64,000 nt of DNA from an uncultured Actinomycetota bacterium. Lineage in GTDB: Bacteria > Actinomycetota > Actinomycetes > Propionibacteriales > Nocardioidaceae. Below the pieces are notes generated by a model. The model was not told the origin of the DNA and searched no databases. It saw nothing but the letters and a program-made list of their open reading frames with translations. Numbering within the stretch: position 1 is the stretch's first letter; each line of letters opens with the position of its first letter. A program made the position numbers and the translations under genes. Location: positions 271,622 through 335,621 of the forward strand of contig CAVYGA010000002.1 in the NCBI GenBank assembly GCA_963767955.1, read 5' to 3'. Positions 1,006-41,421 of this stretch are shown here, in pieces.

Positions 1006-1082
<77 letters not shown>

Positions 1083-24072: not shown

Positions 24073-24145
24073 GCCCCAGTAGCTCAGCGGATAGAGCAGC
24101 CGCCTCCTAAGCGAAAGGTCGCAGGTTCGACTCCTGCCTGGGGCA
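24073..24145 (+). tRNA. tRNA-Arg(CCT)
   Basis: GCCCCAG/CTGGGGC acceptor, GCTC/GAGC D stem with A20, anticodon loop CTCCTAA, T arm GCAGG-TTCGACT-CCTGC. No encoded CCA; the anticodon stem has 2 mismatches. Confidence 0.88.
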
Positions 24146-38733: not shown

Positions 38734-39234
38734 TCACTTCACGACCGCGTCGATCGTCTTCTTCAGCGCACTCGGCTGCGAGGGCCGGCGGGGCGCGTCC
38801 GCGCGGCGGCGCTCCATCTCCGCCCCGATCGCCTGGAGGGTGGTGCGGCTGAGGCCCTCACGGACCTTCGGGAACCACTCCTGCTCCTCCTCCTCGATGT
38901 GGTGGCGGACGTTCTCGATGAGCACGGTGGTCTTGGCGGTGAACCGCTCGTGGTCCGGCTTCATCGCGGCCAGCTCGACCACGAGCACGTCGGCGACGTG
39001 GTGCTCCTCGTAGGACTCGAGCACGTCGTCCTCGACCTCGGGCAGCAGCTCCCGGACCCGTGGGTACATCACCTCGTTCTCGAGGTAGGTGTGCACGGTG
39101 AGCAGCTCGATGATCCGGTCGACGATCCTGCCCTTGGTGGCATGCGCGTTCTCGCCGGCCCTCTCGAAGTCGGTGAAGGCCTTGCGGATGTCCTTGTGGT
39201 CGTTCTTCAACAGCACGATGGCGTCGGTCGACAT
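38734..39234 (-). CDS. Hemerythrin-like (HHE) domain protein
   Basis: 'LLKNDH', 'LTVHTYLENEVMYP', 'EEHHVAD', 'HHIEEEEQEWFP'; GGAG SD before ATG 39234. Confidence 0.88.
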   Translation of the reverse strand: MSTDAIVLLKNDHKDIRKAFTDFERAGENAHATKGRIVDRIIELLTVHTYLENEVMYPRVRELLPEVEDDVLESYEEHHVADVLVVELAAMKPDHERFTAKTTVLIENVRHHIEEEEQEWFPKVREGLSRTTLQAIGAEMERRRADAPRRPSQPSALKKTIDAVVK

Positions 39235-39316
39235 GGTCGCTCCTGTGGGCGGTGACGGGGAGAGGACGACGTACCCGGGTCCGCCCATGCCATGCCGCGG
39301 CCACCCCGAAAAGCCC

Positions 39317-39345
39317 TTGTCGGCCGCGGGCGCCGGACGTACCGT
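39317..39345 (+). promoter_or_regulatory. Housekeeping-sigma-type promoter of the intergenic transcript
   Basis: TTGTCG (39317-22)-N17-TACCGT (39340-45). Confidence 0.55.
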
Positions 39346-39351
39346 TTCCGT

Positions 39352-39545
39352 ACACGGGAAAGGAGGTGGTCCGAACGGTGAATTCTTTCGGGACTCGTGA
39401 GGTGGCTGCCCGCTAGCGGCACCACTGCCCAGCTTGCAGTGTGTTGCTGCAGGCGAATCCAGAGGCAGACACCCGACCCGCAGGTGCTCCGGACATTTGT
39501 CCCCCGGAGAGACGCTCCGAGCGTCACCACCTGCGGGTCGTTCCC
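39352..39545 (+). ncRNA. Candidate structured sRNA / dual-function RNA
   Basis: Upstream promoter; hairpin GTGG-C-TGCC/GGCA-CCAC; 13-bp perfect closing stem CGACCCGCAGGTG/CACCTGCGGGTCG (39474-39540) enclosing two hairpins; then a pyrimidine run. Confidence 0.5.
39378..39416 (+). CDS. 12-aa small ORF (MNSFGTREVAAR)
   Basis: Perfect SD AAGGAGGTG (39360-39368) 9 nt before GTG; TAG at 39414-39416. Confidence 0.45.
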   Translation: MNSFGTREVAAR

Positions 39546-39603
39546 ATTTCGGCCCCTGACGGCCCCTGATGGCCCCTGACGGCGGCCCGGCTCCGCACAT
39601 GGT

Positions 39604-39637
39604 TCAGGGGTCGACGCATCGCTGCGCCGACCCCTGA
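39604..39637. terminator. GC hairpin downstream of the 39648 gene
   Basis: TCAGGGGTCG...CGACCCCTGA 10-bp stem extended by CGCA/TGCG. Confidence 0.6.
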
Positions 39638-39647
39638 GTCGGAGACG

Positions 39648-40124
39648 CTAGTTGAGCGGGCAGCCCAGGTTGTTGTCCGTGTCCAGCCTGCTCGCCAGGT
39701 CGATCATCGTGGCGCGGTCACCGGAGGCGAAGGCGTCGTTCACGGTCCGCACCAGGGCCGGCCGGGCGTCGAGCCCGACCGAGTCGCGTCGCCACGGGTA
39801 GCCGAGTCCCTCGTTCGCCGCGTTGAGCCAGGCGGCCGTCGCTGCCCGCGCCAGGATCTTGGCCGCCCCGTCGGCGCCCGGTCCACCGCCGCCGGCCAGT
39901 GCCTCCAACAGCGTCAGGTCGGCGACGTTGGCGCGGGCCCGGAAGTAGAGCGACTTGAAGGTGTTGGTGGGAACGGTTTCCTCCCAGCTGTCCGTGTGGT
40001 TCTTCCAGTACCCGGGCGTGCAGCCCTGATAGCCGATGGCGTCGGCCTGCGCGGGCGACGAAGCCACCCCGACGCCGAACGAGAGCAGAAGCGCACACAC
40101 CACAACACGAACGAGATTTCTCAT
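39648..40124 (-). CDS. Small secreted protein with a 'GCTPGYWKNH' domain
   Basis: Signal peptide 'MRNLVRVVVCALLLSFGVGVASSPAQA'; 'GCTPGYWKNH...LTLLEAL...LARAATAAWLNA...LDTDNNLGCPLN'. Confidence 0.7.
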   Translation of the reverse strand: MRNLVRVVVCALLLSFGVGVASSPAQADAIGYQGCTPGYWKNHTDSWEETVPTNTFKSLYFRARANVADLTLLEALAGGGGPGADGAAKILARAATAAWLNAANEGLGYPWRRDSVGLDARPALVRTVNDAFASGDRATMIDLASRLDTDNNLGCPLN

Positions 40125-40296
40125 CGTCACTCCAGAACCTTCTCCAGGGAGCCCCCCTCCGGGACCCGACCGATCCAGCCTCCGTGCCGAAGGTCTCCGC
40201 GACAAGAACCCATGTGAGGGGTCTCGTGACCCACCGGGACCACTGGGGAACCCCAGTGCTCCCGAGCCTGGGCGGCGACCCGTCGAACCCCTCGGG

Positions 40297-41421
40297 CTAC
40301 CCGCCGATCCGCACCAGCCGGGCATCGTCGGTGGGCACGATCGCGTCGTCGTAGCCGCCGGCGACCAGGACGGTACGCCGCCCGACCGGCGTGGCGCTGA
40401 CGAACGACCGCCGCGGCACCAGGGGCGCCGGCAGCACCGACATCTCGTCGGTGCGCGGGTCGAAGACGTTGACCCGGGTCCCTCCGGCGATGACCACCCG
40501 GCCGTCGGCCAGTCGGACCACCGCCCCGTCCAGCTTGTACTCCCCCTCGCTGAGCTCCGGGCCCGCGACGACTCCCGACCCGTCGACGATCTCGGTGCTC
40601 GCCAGCAGCGCCCGCCCCTCGACCGTGGTGGCGCCGCCGACGACGAGCGCCCGCCCGTCCGCCAGGGAGACCACGGCGTGCTTGACCCGCGGGGTGACCA
40701 GGGTCGGGCCCGGGCTGCGCCGCTCGCCGTCGAGCCACTCGGTGTCGGCGAGCGCATCCGTCCGGGCCGTACCCCCGACCAGCAGCACCCGGCCGTCCAC
40801 CAGCGCCGCGGCATGGGCGGCCCGCGGCCGGAGCAGGTCCGCGGCCGGGGTGAACTCGCCGGCATCCGGGTCGAAGACCTCCACCGACGCGACACCGTCG
40901 CCGTCGGCCCCGAAGCCGCCGGCGACCAGGACCCGGCCGTCGGGCAGCACGGTCGCGGTGTGGTCGGCCCGCGCGATGGCCAGGTCGCCGACCGGCGCGA
41001 AGGAGTCGCTGACCGGGTCGAACACCTCGGCGGAGGCGGTGGCCGGCTCACCCTCCCCCGGGTAGCCGCCGACCAGCAGCACCCGGCCGTCCGCCAGCAG
41101 CGTGGCGCTGCCACTGGCCCGCGGCGAGCCCGTCCGCGGGCCGGCCGTCATCCGTCGGGTGGCCGGGTCGTAGACGTCGACGGCCCGCGCGGCGTCGAAG
41201 CCACCGCACCCGGGCTCGGTGCAGCCGCCGGTGAACAGCACCCGGCCGTCGGCCAGCCGGGTGGCCCGGTGCACGGCTCGCGGACGGGTCAGGCGCAGCC
41301 CGGGTGCCGCGTCGCTCGACGTCGACGCGGAGCCAGGTGGCTCCGGAGTCCGGTCGTCCCCGTCCGAGCACCCCACGGCTGCCAGCAGGACCGCGGCGAG
41401 GAGCACCCGCGCGGCGGTCAC
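40297..41421 (-). CDS. Kelch-repeat (galactose oxidase-like propeller) lipoprotein
   Basis: Lipobox 'LAAVGC'; about six repeats 'R..H.A..L.DGRVL..GG...E.FDP'; GTG overlaps the pdxH stop. Confidence 0.85.
   Translation of the reverse strand: MTAARVLLAAVLLAAVGCSDGDDRTPEPPGSASTSSDAAPGLRLTRPRAVHRATRLADGRVLFTGGCTEPGCGGFDAARAVDVYDPATRRMTAGPRTGSPRASGSATLLADGRVLLVGGYPGEGEPATASAEVFDPVSDSFAPVGDLAIARADHTATVLPDGRVLVAGGFGADGDGVASVEVFDPDAGEFTPAADLLRPRAAHAAALVDGRVLLVGGTARTDALADTEWLDGERRSPGPTLVTPRVKHAVVSLADGRALVVGGATTVEGRALLASTEIVDGSGVVAGPELSEGEYKLDGAVVRLADGRVVIAGGTRVNVFDPRTDEMSVLPAPLVPRRSFVSATPVGRRTVLVAGGYDDAIVPTDDARLVRIGG

What the first reader, a model, noticed from the sequence alone, without database searches (positions are those of the whole stretch)
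39317..39550. Stand-alone structured RNA encoding a 12-aa peptide: candidate undescribed sRNA/peptide system
Seen: a ~410-nt gap in which both flanking genes are on the minus strand. On the plus strand lie TTGTCG-N17-TACCGT, a perfect AAGGAGGTG SD, GTG-NSFGTREVAAR-TAG with the stop codon in the loop of a GTGG-C-TGCC/GGCA-CCAC hairpin, a small TGCAG/CTGCA hairpin, and a three-way junction closed by a perfect 13-bp stem (39474-39540) with inner CTCCGG/CCGGAG and GACGCT/AGCGTC stems. No downstream plus-strand gene exists to attenuate. It does not match the tmRNA, RNase P, SRP or riboswitch motifs I can recall. Inference: a dual-function sRNA, a signalling/regulatory peptide, or a type-I-TA-like unit.
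Basis: partly seen in the sequence, partly recalled or inferred. Interest (0 to 1): 0.75.

Follow-up and report, generated by a model that had tools for sequence, protein, structure and literature searches.

The report
Known actinobacterial sRNA Ms_IGR-5, ribosome-loaded
The "undescribed" structured RNA is this genome's single copy of Ms_IGR-5, a small RNA family already in Rfam with no assigned function. Its tiny reading frame and unusually long ribosome-binding site are conserved across the phylum and are built into the RNA's own helices, so ribosome loading, not the peptide, is probably what matters.

Summary
The element is not undescribed: window 39352-39546(+) matches Rfam RF02471 (Ms_IGR-5) at 109 bits against a cut-off of 45, over the full model. 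It occurs once per genome in 31 of 31 relatives and is widespread in the phylum.

In 97 homologues:
- A stop codon lies exactly 9 nt after an invariant GAGGUG in 97/97 (UAG 73, UGA 17, UAA 7).
- A canonical start codon sits in frame in 74/97. The other 23 carry a near-cognate codon at the same position.
- Amino acids are not conserved. There are 44 distinct peptides among 51, with no third-position excess.
- The 5' leader forms 16 contiguous pairs with the 16S rRNA 3' tail. This is the only such site in the 3.9-Mb genome apart from the rDNA antisense strand, and 84/97 homologues keep all 16.
- The conserved codons are strands of RNA helices. GGAC pairs with a 3' hairpin loop (a covarying pseudoknot), and GGUGGCUGC pairs with GCAGnCACC.

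Gene neighbours are not conserved, so it is not a leader. It is not toxin-antitoxin-like.

Most likely it is a stand-alone sRNA whose fold is gated by ribosome binding and translation. What that gating controls is unknown. Verdict: a new member of a known family, of moderate interest.

The parts
39317..39345 (+). Promoter: -35 TTGTCG (39317-39322), 17-nt spacer, -10 TACCGT (39340-39345). The predicted start is A39352, 6 nt downstream.
   Evidence: Sequence. The pattern TTGnnn-N16-19-TAnnnT-N5-8 lies directly before the RNA in 48/57 homologous loci, against 0/1140 control positions. The E. coli-type consensus scanner found nothing.
39352..39552 (+). Ms_IGR-5 sRNA, about 200 nt. The Rfam match covers 39352-39546.
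   Evidence: RF02471 at 109.3 bits (cut-off 45), model positions 1-184 of 184. One copy in the genome. Near-identical soil metatranscriptome contigs cover 39362-39552, and no contig covers 39251-39352 or the stretch beyond 39556.
39357..39372 (+). Extended Shine-Dalgarno GGAAAGGAGGUGGUCC. It forms 16 contiguous pairs (14 Watson-Crick plus 2 G-U) with the genome's own 16S 3' tail, GGAUCACCUCCUUUCU.
   Evidence: The 16S tail was read. Apart from the rDNA antisense strand, this is the only 16-pair site in the genome. 84/97 homologues keep 16/16. Variable positions change only A<->G opposite U, or C<->U opposite G.
39378..39416 (+). 12-codon ORF, GTG-NSFGTREVAAR-TAG. Start 39378-39380, stop 39414-39416.
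   Evidence: In-frame stop in 97/97 homologues, using all three stop codons. Canonical start in 74/97 and a near-cognate at the same place in 23/97. Frame length is 12 to 14 codons. There is no amino-acid-level constraint.
39369..39394 (+). Optional hairpin P1: GUCCGAA (39369-39375) pairs with UUC-G-GGAC (39387-39394), with the start codon in the loop. It is mutually exclusive with the pseudoknot and with full SD-16S pairing.
   Evidence: Predicted by RNAalifold on 19 same-genus sequences. It cannot be tested by covariation because its 5' strand is invariant. Its pair at the first GGAC position is broken in all 8 sequences with AGAC or CGAC.
39390..39394 (+). Pseudoknot 5' strand, GGGAC (ORF codons 5-6).
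   Evidence: It pairs with 39499-39503. Over six pseudoknot positions, 89.6% of cells are paired against 75.6% in shuffles (0/500). Covariation score is 0.317 against 0.094. Pair types are GC/CG/AU, CG/UA, and CG/GC/UA/AU.
39399..39404 (+). Second, internal SD-like motif GAGGUG (codons 8-9). It is invariant and lies exactly 9 nt before the stop codon.
   Evidence: Present in 97/97 homologues, always followed by N9 and a stop codon.
39401..39410 (+). Helix P2, 5' strand GGUGGCUGCC (codons 8-11).
   Evidence: It pairs with 39464-39473. Covarying pairs include UA70/CG20/GC6 and CG44/GC22/AU7/UA4. RNAalifold predicted the helix independently, and it appears in the minimum-free-energy fold.
39411..39454 (+). 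Variable middle domain.
   Evidence: Length and sequence vary widely among homologues. Pairings here could not be tested.
39455..39460 (+). Conserved unpaired junction motif GAAUCC.
   Evidence: Conserved in the alignments. No complement of 8 nt or more was found in the rRNA operon. Its role is unknown.
39464..39473 (+). Helix P2, 3' strand GGCAGACACC.
39474..39540 (+). 3' domain, closed by the 13-bp stem P4 (39474-39486 / 39528-39540). Inside are hairpin P4a (39487-39492 / 39504-39509) and the species-specific hairpin P4b (39511-39516 / 39520-39525). The P4a loop carries the pseudoknot 3' strand GUCCC (39499-39503). With the U-containing tail 39541-39552, P4 probably also serves as the terminator.
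   Evidence: P4 is 92.8% paired, and all 13 pairs show changes on both sides. P4a is 80.3% paired, with changes on both sides in 6/6 pairs. S. avermitilis data place a mapped 3' end on the homologous sRNA unit (PMC8780764).

Best explanation
This is the genome's single copy of the actinobacterial small RNA Ms_IGR-5 (Rfam RF02471).

Shown here:
- It has its own housekeeping-type promoter and ends in its own 13-bp stem.
- No gene neighbour is conserved.
- The 5' leader is complementary over 16 nt to the 3' tail of 16S rRNA, so it is a very strong ribosome-binding site.
- A mini-ORF of 12 codons here (12 to 14 in the family) keeps its start and stop positions but not its amino acids.
- The ORF's conserved nucleotides are strands of the RNA's own architecture. 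GGAC (codons 5-6) forms a pseudoknot with the loop of the first 3' hairpin. GGUGGCUGC (codons 8-11) forms a long-range helix with GCAGnCACC.

Inferred (about 50% likely):
- A 30S subunit docks on the free leader.
- A translating ribosome must melt the pseudoknot and P2, so the compact fold and ribosome occupancy exclude each other.
- The RNA therefore works as a translation-gated switch. Its conformation, and hence whatever the 3' domain binds, or its own stability, reports or exploits the availability of initiating ribosomes.
- The stop codon releases the ribosome before the 3' domain.
- The second SD-like GAGGUG, 9 nt before the stop codon, would hold the terminating ribosome's anti-SD.

The downstream output or target is not known. 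The confidence given (0.55) is for the whole statement. Family membership alone is about 0.97, and translation of the mini-ORF about 0.8.
For: Identity:
- RF02471 at 109.3 bits against a cut-off of 45, over the full model.
- One copy per genome in 31/31 relatives.
- 22/25 genomes of the same class, and 76/301 across the phylum under stricter filters.

Stand-alone gene:
- The promoter pattern is conserved in 48/57 loci against 0/1140 controls.
- The flanking hemerythrin and secreted-protein genes occur in none of 56 other loci.
- The largest neighbour clusters hold 6 of 57 loci.
- S. avermitilis maps the homologue as an sRNA unit with both a mapped start and a mapped end.
- It is RNA-seq-validated in S. 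lividans.
- Near-identical metatranscriptome contigs cover only the RNA.

Ribosome engagement:
- 16/16 pairs with the genome's own 16S tail, unique in the genome.
- 84/97 homologues keep 16/16, and substitutions are restricted to ones that still pair.
- An in-frame stop lies at GAGGUG+9 in 97/97, using UAG, UGA and UAA.
- Start codons are ATG/TTG/GTG in 74/97, and CUG/AUC/ACG/AUA at the same site in 23/97.
- Ribosome footprints on Ms_IGR-5 are reported in M. abscessus and M. smegmatis (PMC4974804).

The peptide is not the product:
- 44 distinct peptides among 51, and equal variability at the three positions of codons 2-4.

The ORF is embedded in the fold:
- P2, P4 and P4a: covariation score 0.447 against 0.146, 0/500 shuffles as high.
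- Pseudoknot: 0.317 against 0.094, 0/500 shuffles as high, slid controls 0.079 or lower.
- RNAalifold predicts P1, P2, P4 and P4a independently.
Against: - No experiment in this organism shows a transcript, a ribosome footprint or a phenotype.
- Metatranscriptome contigs carry no strand information and may include DNA.
- The nested-helix counts were made on an alignment fitted to the same structure.
- The pseudoknot counts rest on 10-mers that I anchored by motif.
- The 16S tail was read only in this genome and assumed to be the same in the others.
- The last four nucleotides of the extended SD (GUCC) can also be explained by hairpin P1.
- In 23 distant homologues the start is only near-cognate, so translation there could be weak or absent.
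- Nothing identifies what the switch would control.
- The family is absent from C. glutamicum (the control genomes) and from 3 of 25 genomes of the same class, so it is not indispensable.
Confidence: 0.55

Rival explanations
1. It is a 30S or anti-SD decoy. The RNA's job is to hold the 16S 3' tail of a small subunit, for sequestration, protection or a checkpoint on idle or immature subunits. The pseudoknot sits at the mRNA entry channel and hinders accommodation. The start and stop codons exist only to discharge ribosomes that do initiate.
For: The 16-nt complement is the longest in the genome and is kept in 84/97 homologues. A second invariant anti-SD-binding motif is present. The pseudoknot begins 12 nt after the start codon. 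Many starts are weak: 60/97 are non-AUG, and 23 of those are near-cognate.
Against: A single-copy sRNA is unlikely to match ribosome numbers. Canonical starts in 74/97 and the AU-rich, unstructured first codons (57% AU against 35% for the whole RNA) look selected for initiation rather than against it. Ribosome footprints are reported in two mycobacteria.
Confidence: 0.2
2. It is an ordinary trans-acting base-pairing sRNA. The conserved single-stranded motifs (GAAUCC, or the purine-rich leader) pair with target mRNAs. The ORF-like pattern is a by-product of RNA constraints, and translation is incidental.
For: It was recovered as an sRNA by Hfq pull-down, northern blot and 5' RACE in M. smegmatis (review PMC4109619). 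It has conserved unpaired motifs. The peptide is not conserved.
Against: Stop identity varies among UAG, UGA and UAA but is never a sense codon in 97/97. Starts are restricted to AUG or its one-letter neighbours in 97/97. The leader's substitutions track pairing to 16S specifically. RNA structure alone does not predict any of these.
Confidence: 0.12
3. It is a dual-function sRNA whose 12-residue peptide is itself active, as a signalling or regulatory micropeptide.
For: The frame, the strong SD and the invariant Glu-Val are conserved.
Against: There are 44 different peptides in 51 close homologues. Codons 2-4 are free at all three positions. Length varies from 12 to 14 codons. Thr, Glu-Val and Ala-Ala coincide with the pseudoknot, SD2 and P2 nucleotides, and they covary with RNA partners. 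No processing or export genes are linked.
Confidence: 0.06
4. It is a cis-acting leader peptide or attenuator, or a type-I toxin-antitoxin unit.
For: A short ORF is followed by alternative hairpins and a terminator-like stem.
Against: The next gene is convergent. Neighbours and their orientations are not conserved: downstream 29 on the plus strand against 28 on the minus strand, by a rough longest-ORF proxy. The homologue is mapped as an independent sRNA unit in Streptomyces. The peptide is hydrophilic and only 12 residues long, there is no antisense partner, and there is exactly one copy in each relative searched.
Confidence: 0.02

Closest known systems
Ms_IGR-5 (Rfam RF02471), actinobacterial sRNA first reported from M. 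smegmatis
   Same: Full-length match at 109 bits. It shares the conserved leader, GAGGUG box, GAAUCC junction and terminal stem, and is a stand-alone intergenic gene.
   Different: Nothing separates this copy from the family. Features not found in the held literature are the mini-ORF statistics, the 16-nt 16S complement, the pseudoknot and the P2 helix. Rfam's consensus instead pairs the SD region with GCUGCC. Only three held papers name the family, and none gives a function.
Ribosome-dependent attenuator leaders and their released RNAs (for example trpL / rnTrpL, PMC6614838)
   Same: A mini-ORF whose translation decides which of several competing helices form. The released leader RNA can act in trans.
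   Different: There is no downstream regulated gene and no run of regulatory codons. The unit is an independent gene conserved across a phylum.
Dual-function sRNAs (SgrS/SgrT, SR1/SR1P, RNAIII/hld; from my own knowledge)
   Same: An sRNA that is also translated.
   Different: In those cases the peptide sequence is conserved and active. Here it is not conserved.
tmRNA
   Same: A stable, pseudoknotted, single-copy RNA with a short ORF that ribosomes decode.
   Different: There is no tRNA-like domain (ARAGORN found none) and no Rfam tmRNA match. It has its own SD and start codon rather than a resume codon.
rpsO (S15) mRNA pseudoknot that traps the 30S subunit (from my own knowledge)
   Same: A pseudoknot lies just downstream of an SD and start codon, where it can block accommodation of the mRNA in the 30S channel.
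   Different: That element is the leader of a protein-coding mRNA and needs protein S15. Here no protein partner or regulated gene is known.

Membership tests
Rfam RF02471 Ms_IGR-5 | Covariance-model score at or above the curated gathering score (45 bits) | tested here: met
   109.3 bits, E = 1.1e-23 on the whole window and 8.4e-26 on the region alone.
Rfam RF02471 Ms_IGR-5 | Full-length match to the model on one strand | tested here: met
   Model positions 1-184 of 184, plus strand, not truncated.
Rfam RF02471 Ms_IGR-5 | Found in Actinobacteria as an intergenic, independently transcribed sRNA | tested here: met
   31/31 relatives carry one copy. None of 14 control genomes from other groups matches. 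A promoter is conserved. Direct transcript evidence comes only from near-identical metatranscriptome contigs and from published data on homologues.
Rfam RF02471 Ms_IGR-5 | Northern or 5' RACE-verified transcript in this organism | not testable with these tools
   No pure-culture RNA run of this organism was found.
Leader-peptide transcription attenuator | A co-oriented regulated gene directly downstream, conserved among homologues | tested here: not met
   The downstream gene is convergent. Neighbours are not conserved.
Type I toxin-antitoxin | A hydrophobic membrane peptide of about 20-60 residues plus an overlapping or nearby antisense RNA | tested here: not met
   The peptide is VNSFGTREVAAR, 12 residues and hydrophilic. 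No antisense element was found. The unit is single-copy in every relative searched.
Dual-function sRNA with active peptide | Amino-acid-level conservation of the encoded peptide | tested here: not met
   44 of 51 peptides are distinct. Entropies for codons 2-4 are equal across the three codon positions.
tmRNA | A tRNA-like domain and a tag ORF without its own SD or start codon | tested here: not met
   ARAGORN finds no tmRNA or tRNA in 39200-39700. There is no Rfam tmRNA match.

The most novel reading that the evidence does not exclude
Ms_IGR-5 is a phylum-wide, housekeeping-type RNA that works on or through the ribosome itself. The free leader tethers the 16S 3' tail. Initiation and translation of the mini-ORF toggle a pseudoknotted 3' domain. 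The RNA thereby senses, or buffers, the pool of initiation-competent small subunits. This would be a class of riboregulator not yet described, and it would give the uncharacterised family its first function.
Probability: 0.35. Interest if true: 0.8.

Novelty: new member of a known kind. Interest (0 to 1): 0.4.

Why it matters
For this window the result is mostly a correction: the "new system" is a catalogued sRNA.

The family itself remains functionally blank although it is single-copy and conserved across much of the Actinomycetota, including mycobacteria and streptomycetes. The features measured here are an anti-SD complement as long as any in the genome, a mini-ORF conserved in frame but not in sequence, and ORF nucleotides that double as pseudoknot and helix strands. 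Together they give a concrete hypothesis that can be tested in laboratory strains (M. smegmatis mc2 155, S. coelicolor M145): its function depends on ribosome loading.

Tried and rejected
- A permissive Rfam scan of 39200-39700 found no second family.
- ARAGORN found no tRNA or tmRNA.
- The consensus promoter/terminator scanner found nothing. Its criteria are E. coli-like, so I used family conservation instead.
- Synteny. Longest-ORF clustering of flanks gave only small clusters. This proxy is noisy in high-GC DNA. A tblastn search with the two real neighbours found them in no other locus.
- I searched for rRNA complementarity to the conserved GAAUCC junction. There was no match of 8 nt or more in the rRNA operon.
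- MAFFT and covariance-model alignments did not align the pseudoknot loop consistently. I therefore anchored 10-mers independently on each side and counted the pairs with the tool.
- Literature. The original paper by Li et al. is not held. Searches for a function or an alternative name found nothing.
- No pure-culture RNA-seq run holds this sequence.

Full report
**1. Observation**

- TTGTCG (39317-39322), a 17-nt spacer, and TACCGT (39340-39345).
- AAGGAGGTG (39360-39368).
- A GTG start (39378-39380), eleven sense codons (NSFGTREVAAR) and TAG (39414-39416).
- A local hairpin with the stop codon in its loop.
- A small TGCAG/CTGCA hairpin.
- A perfect 13-bp stem (39474-39486 / 39528-39540) enclosing two inner hairpins.

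The gap between genes is 413 nt. On the left, a hemerythrin-domain gene starts at 39234 on the minus strand (PF01814). On the right, a minus-strand gene ends at 39648. Only its last 158 or so codons look real; they encode a secreted protein with no Pfam match. So no plus-strand gene follows the element. The region folds better than all 100 shuffles (z = -4.3).

**2. Identity**

A scan of the whole window against Rfam places 39352-39546(+) in RF02471, Ms_IGR-5. The score is 109.3 bits against a gathering score of 45, covering model positions 1-184 of 184. No other family matches, even at E <= 1.

The family was found in M. smegmatis by pull-down with a foreign Hfq. That study's sRNAs were confirmed by northern blot and 5' RACE, according to a review (PMC4109619). 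The original paper is not held. Published data on homologues:
- RNA-seq-validated in S. lividans (PMC8079986).
- Forms its own sRNA transcription unit, with mapped start and end, in S. avermitilis (PMC8780764).
- Carries ribosome footprints in M. abscessus and M. smegmatis (PMC4974804).

None of the three held papers that name it assigns a function.

**3. Distribution and context**

- The genome has one copy.
- All 31 relatives searched have exactly one.
- In a sample of the phylum, 22 of 25 genomes of the same class and many genomes of other classes have it (76/301 with the stricter filters).
- None of 14 control genomes has it, including Corynebacterium glutamicum.
- A promoter pattern (TTGnnn, 16-19 nt, TAnnnT, 5-8 nt) lies directly upstream in 48/57 loci, against 0/1140 control positions.
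- Neighbours are not conserved. The hemerythrin and the secreted-protein genes occur next to the RNA in no other locus, not even within the genus. Flank clusters never exceed 6 of 57.
- A soil metatranscriptome holds contigs about 99% identical over 39362-39552, and none over the immediate flanks. This is modest evidence for a discrete transcript in a near-identical organism. Contigs carry no strand information, and DNA carry-over is possible.

**4. The mini-ORF**

I compared 97 homologues.
- The hexamer GAGGUG is invariant.
- A stop codon lies exactly 9 nt after it in 97/97: UAG 73, UGA 17, UAA 7, and never a sense codon.
- In frame, 9-13 nt after the GGAGG core, 74/97 have ATG (37), TTG (27) or GTG (10).
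- All 23 remaining sequences, from other classes of the phylum, have a one-letter neighbour of AUG at that position (CUG, AUC, ACG or AUA), with no in-frame stop before it.
- The frame is 12 codons in 51 sequences, 13 in 13 and 14 in 10.

This is the signature of a frame that ribosomes read.

The amino acids, however, are not conserved. There are 44 distinct peptides among 51. Codons 2-4 vary equally at all three codon positions, so there is no third-position excess. The first five codons are AU-rich (57%, against 35% for the whole RNA), as expected for an open initiation region.

**5. The leader**

This genome's 16S rRNA ends ...GGAUCACCUCCUUUCU. Nucleotides 39357-39372 (GGAAAGGAGGUGGUCC) form 16 contiguous pairs with it: 14 Watson-Crick and 2 G-U. 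In both strands of the 3.88-Mb genome, the only other site with 16 pairs is the antisense strand of the 16S gene itself.

Across the family, 84/97 keep 16 of 16. The variable positions change only between letters that still pair: A<->G opposite U, and C<->U opposite G. That pattern is what selection for pairing with a fixed partner predicts. Two caveats apply. I read the 16S tail only in this genome. The last four nucleotides (GUCC) can also pair inside the RNA (hairpin P1).

**6. Structure**

I built a covariance model from a 36-sequence alignment and aligned 97 homologues to it.

| Feature | Window coordinates | Paired | Pairs changed on both sides |
|---|---|---|---|
| P2, GGUG / CACC part | 39401-39404 / 39470-39473 | 90.5% | 0 of 4 |
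| P2, CUGCC / GGCAG part | 39406-39410 / 39464-39468 | 84.7% | 5 of 5 |
| P4, terminal stem | 39474-39486 / 39528-39540 | 92.8% | 13 of 13 |
| P4a, first inner hairpin | 39487-39492 / 39504-39509 | 80.3% | 6 of 6 |

Over the whole nested structure, 88.3% of cells are paired against 69.4% in shuffles, and the covariation score is 0.447 against 0.146 (0/500 shuffles as high). Slid controls score 0.075 or lower. This alignment was fitted to the same structure, which favours it. RNAalifold on an independent MAFFT alignment of 19 same-genus sequences nevertheless predicts the same P2, P4 and P4a, plus a 4-bp hairpin P1.

Reading the sequences suggested a pseudoknot. GGAC in codons 5-6 (39390-39394, GGGAC) is complementary to GUCC in the P4a loop (39499-39503, GUCCC). 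I anchored each side independently by motif and counted with the tool.

| Pseudoknot position | Pair types observed |
|---|---|
| First core position | GC 75, CG 5, AU 3 |
| Two central positions | invariant |
| Fourth position | CG 77, UA 5, UG 1 |
| Next position | CG 31, GC 20, UA 10, AU 2, UG 3 |

Overall, 89.6% of cells are paired against 75.6% in shuffles (0/500 as high). The covariation score is 0.317 against 0.094, and slid controls are 0.079 or lower.

In the eight sequences whose ORF reads AGAC or CGAC, the loop changes to match, while the 5' GGUCC does not. The covariation therefore supports the pseudoknot rather than P1. P1 remains possible as an alternative, mutually exclusive pairing.

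So the conserved "codons" Thr6, Glu8-Val9 and Ala10-Ala11 are the pseudoknot strand, the second SD-like box and the P2 strand.

**7. Mechanism**

Shown:
- A free, very strong ribosome-binding leader.
- A conserved frame.
- ORF nucleotides that double as pseudoknot and P2 strands.

Inferred:
- A ribosome that initiates and elongates must open both pairings. The stop codon then releases it before the 3' domain.
- GAGGUG lies 9 nt upstream of the stop codon, which is 6 nt from the P-site codon. This is the spacing at which it could hold the anti-SD of the terminating ribosome.
- I therefore read the RNA as a translation-gated switch, at about 50%.
- The closely related alternative is a 30S / anti-SD decoy, in which the pseudoknot at +13 hinders accommodation, at about 20%.
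- What the folded or unfolded 3' domain does is unknown. The conserved GAAUCC junction has no rRNA complement.

The remaining rivals fare worse. An ordinary base-pairing sRNA with incidental translation (0.12) does not predict the stop and start statistics. An active peptide (0.06) is contradicted. A leader/attenuator or a type-I TA unit (0.02) is contradicted by context, copy number and peptide properties.

**8. Comparison and novelty**

All testable membership criteria for RF02471 are met. Functionally, the nearest analogues are ribosome-dependent attenuator leaders and their released RNAs, dual-function sRNAs, tmRNA, and the rpsO pseudoknot that traps the 30S subunit. It is a member of none of these families (see the membership table).

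Two earlier reports of this scan, on other genomes, reached a similar reading: a known Ms_IGR-5 with a mini-ORF, a pseudoknot and ribosome loading. I re-derived these points here from my own alignments. They are not independent evidence.

**Verdict:** a new member of a known family. The interpretation "undescribed peptide system" is not upheld, but the family's ribosome-centred anatomy is a worthwhile lead. Interest 0.4.

Noticed in passing
window 39550-39583: A 10-nt tandem repeat, CGGCCCCTGA, in 3.4 copies. It lies directly after the sRNA's terminal tail. The homologues I looked at do not have it, and its meaning is unknown.
   Followed up: partly
window 39596-39640: A strong GC-rich hairpin (GGTTCAGGGGTCGACGC...GCGCCGACCCCTGAGTC), seen in the minimum-free-energy fold, just beyond the stop codon of the convergent minus-strand gene. 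It is probably that gene's terminator and could also back up termination of the sRNA.
   Followed up: no
window 39648-41114 (-): The 488-codon ORF is mostly a high-GC artefact. Only the last 158 or so codons (about 39648-40124) look real. They encode a small protein with a signal peptide and no Pfam match.
   Followed up: partly
window 38734-39234 (-): A hemerythrin HHE-domain protein (PF01814, 166 aa) is transcribed divergently from the sRNA, with 117 nt between its start codon and the sRNA start. The pairing is specific to this genome.
   Followed up: yes
loci L054-L099 (other classes of the phylum): In 23 distant homologues the mini-ORF begins with a near-cognate codon (CUG 17, AUC 3, ACG 2, AUA 1) at the usual distance from the strong SD. 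This suggests weak initiation, possibly sensitive to initiation factors. That idea was not tested.
   Followed up: partly
G051 (contigs C126 and C17): This is the only genome with two Ms_IGR-5 matches. It is a fragmented assembly with 2% contamination, so the second copy may come from a second organism.
   Followed up: no
window 1010-1082 (-) and 24073-24145 (+): Two tRNA genes were found by the Rfam scan.
   Followed up: no
control genomes: RF02471 is absent from Corynebacterium glutamicum and from 3 of 25 sampled genomes of the same class. The family is widespread but dispensable in some actinobacterial lineages.
   Followed up: no
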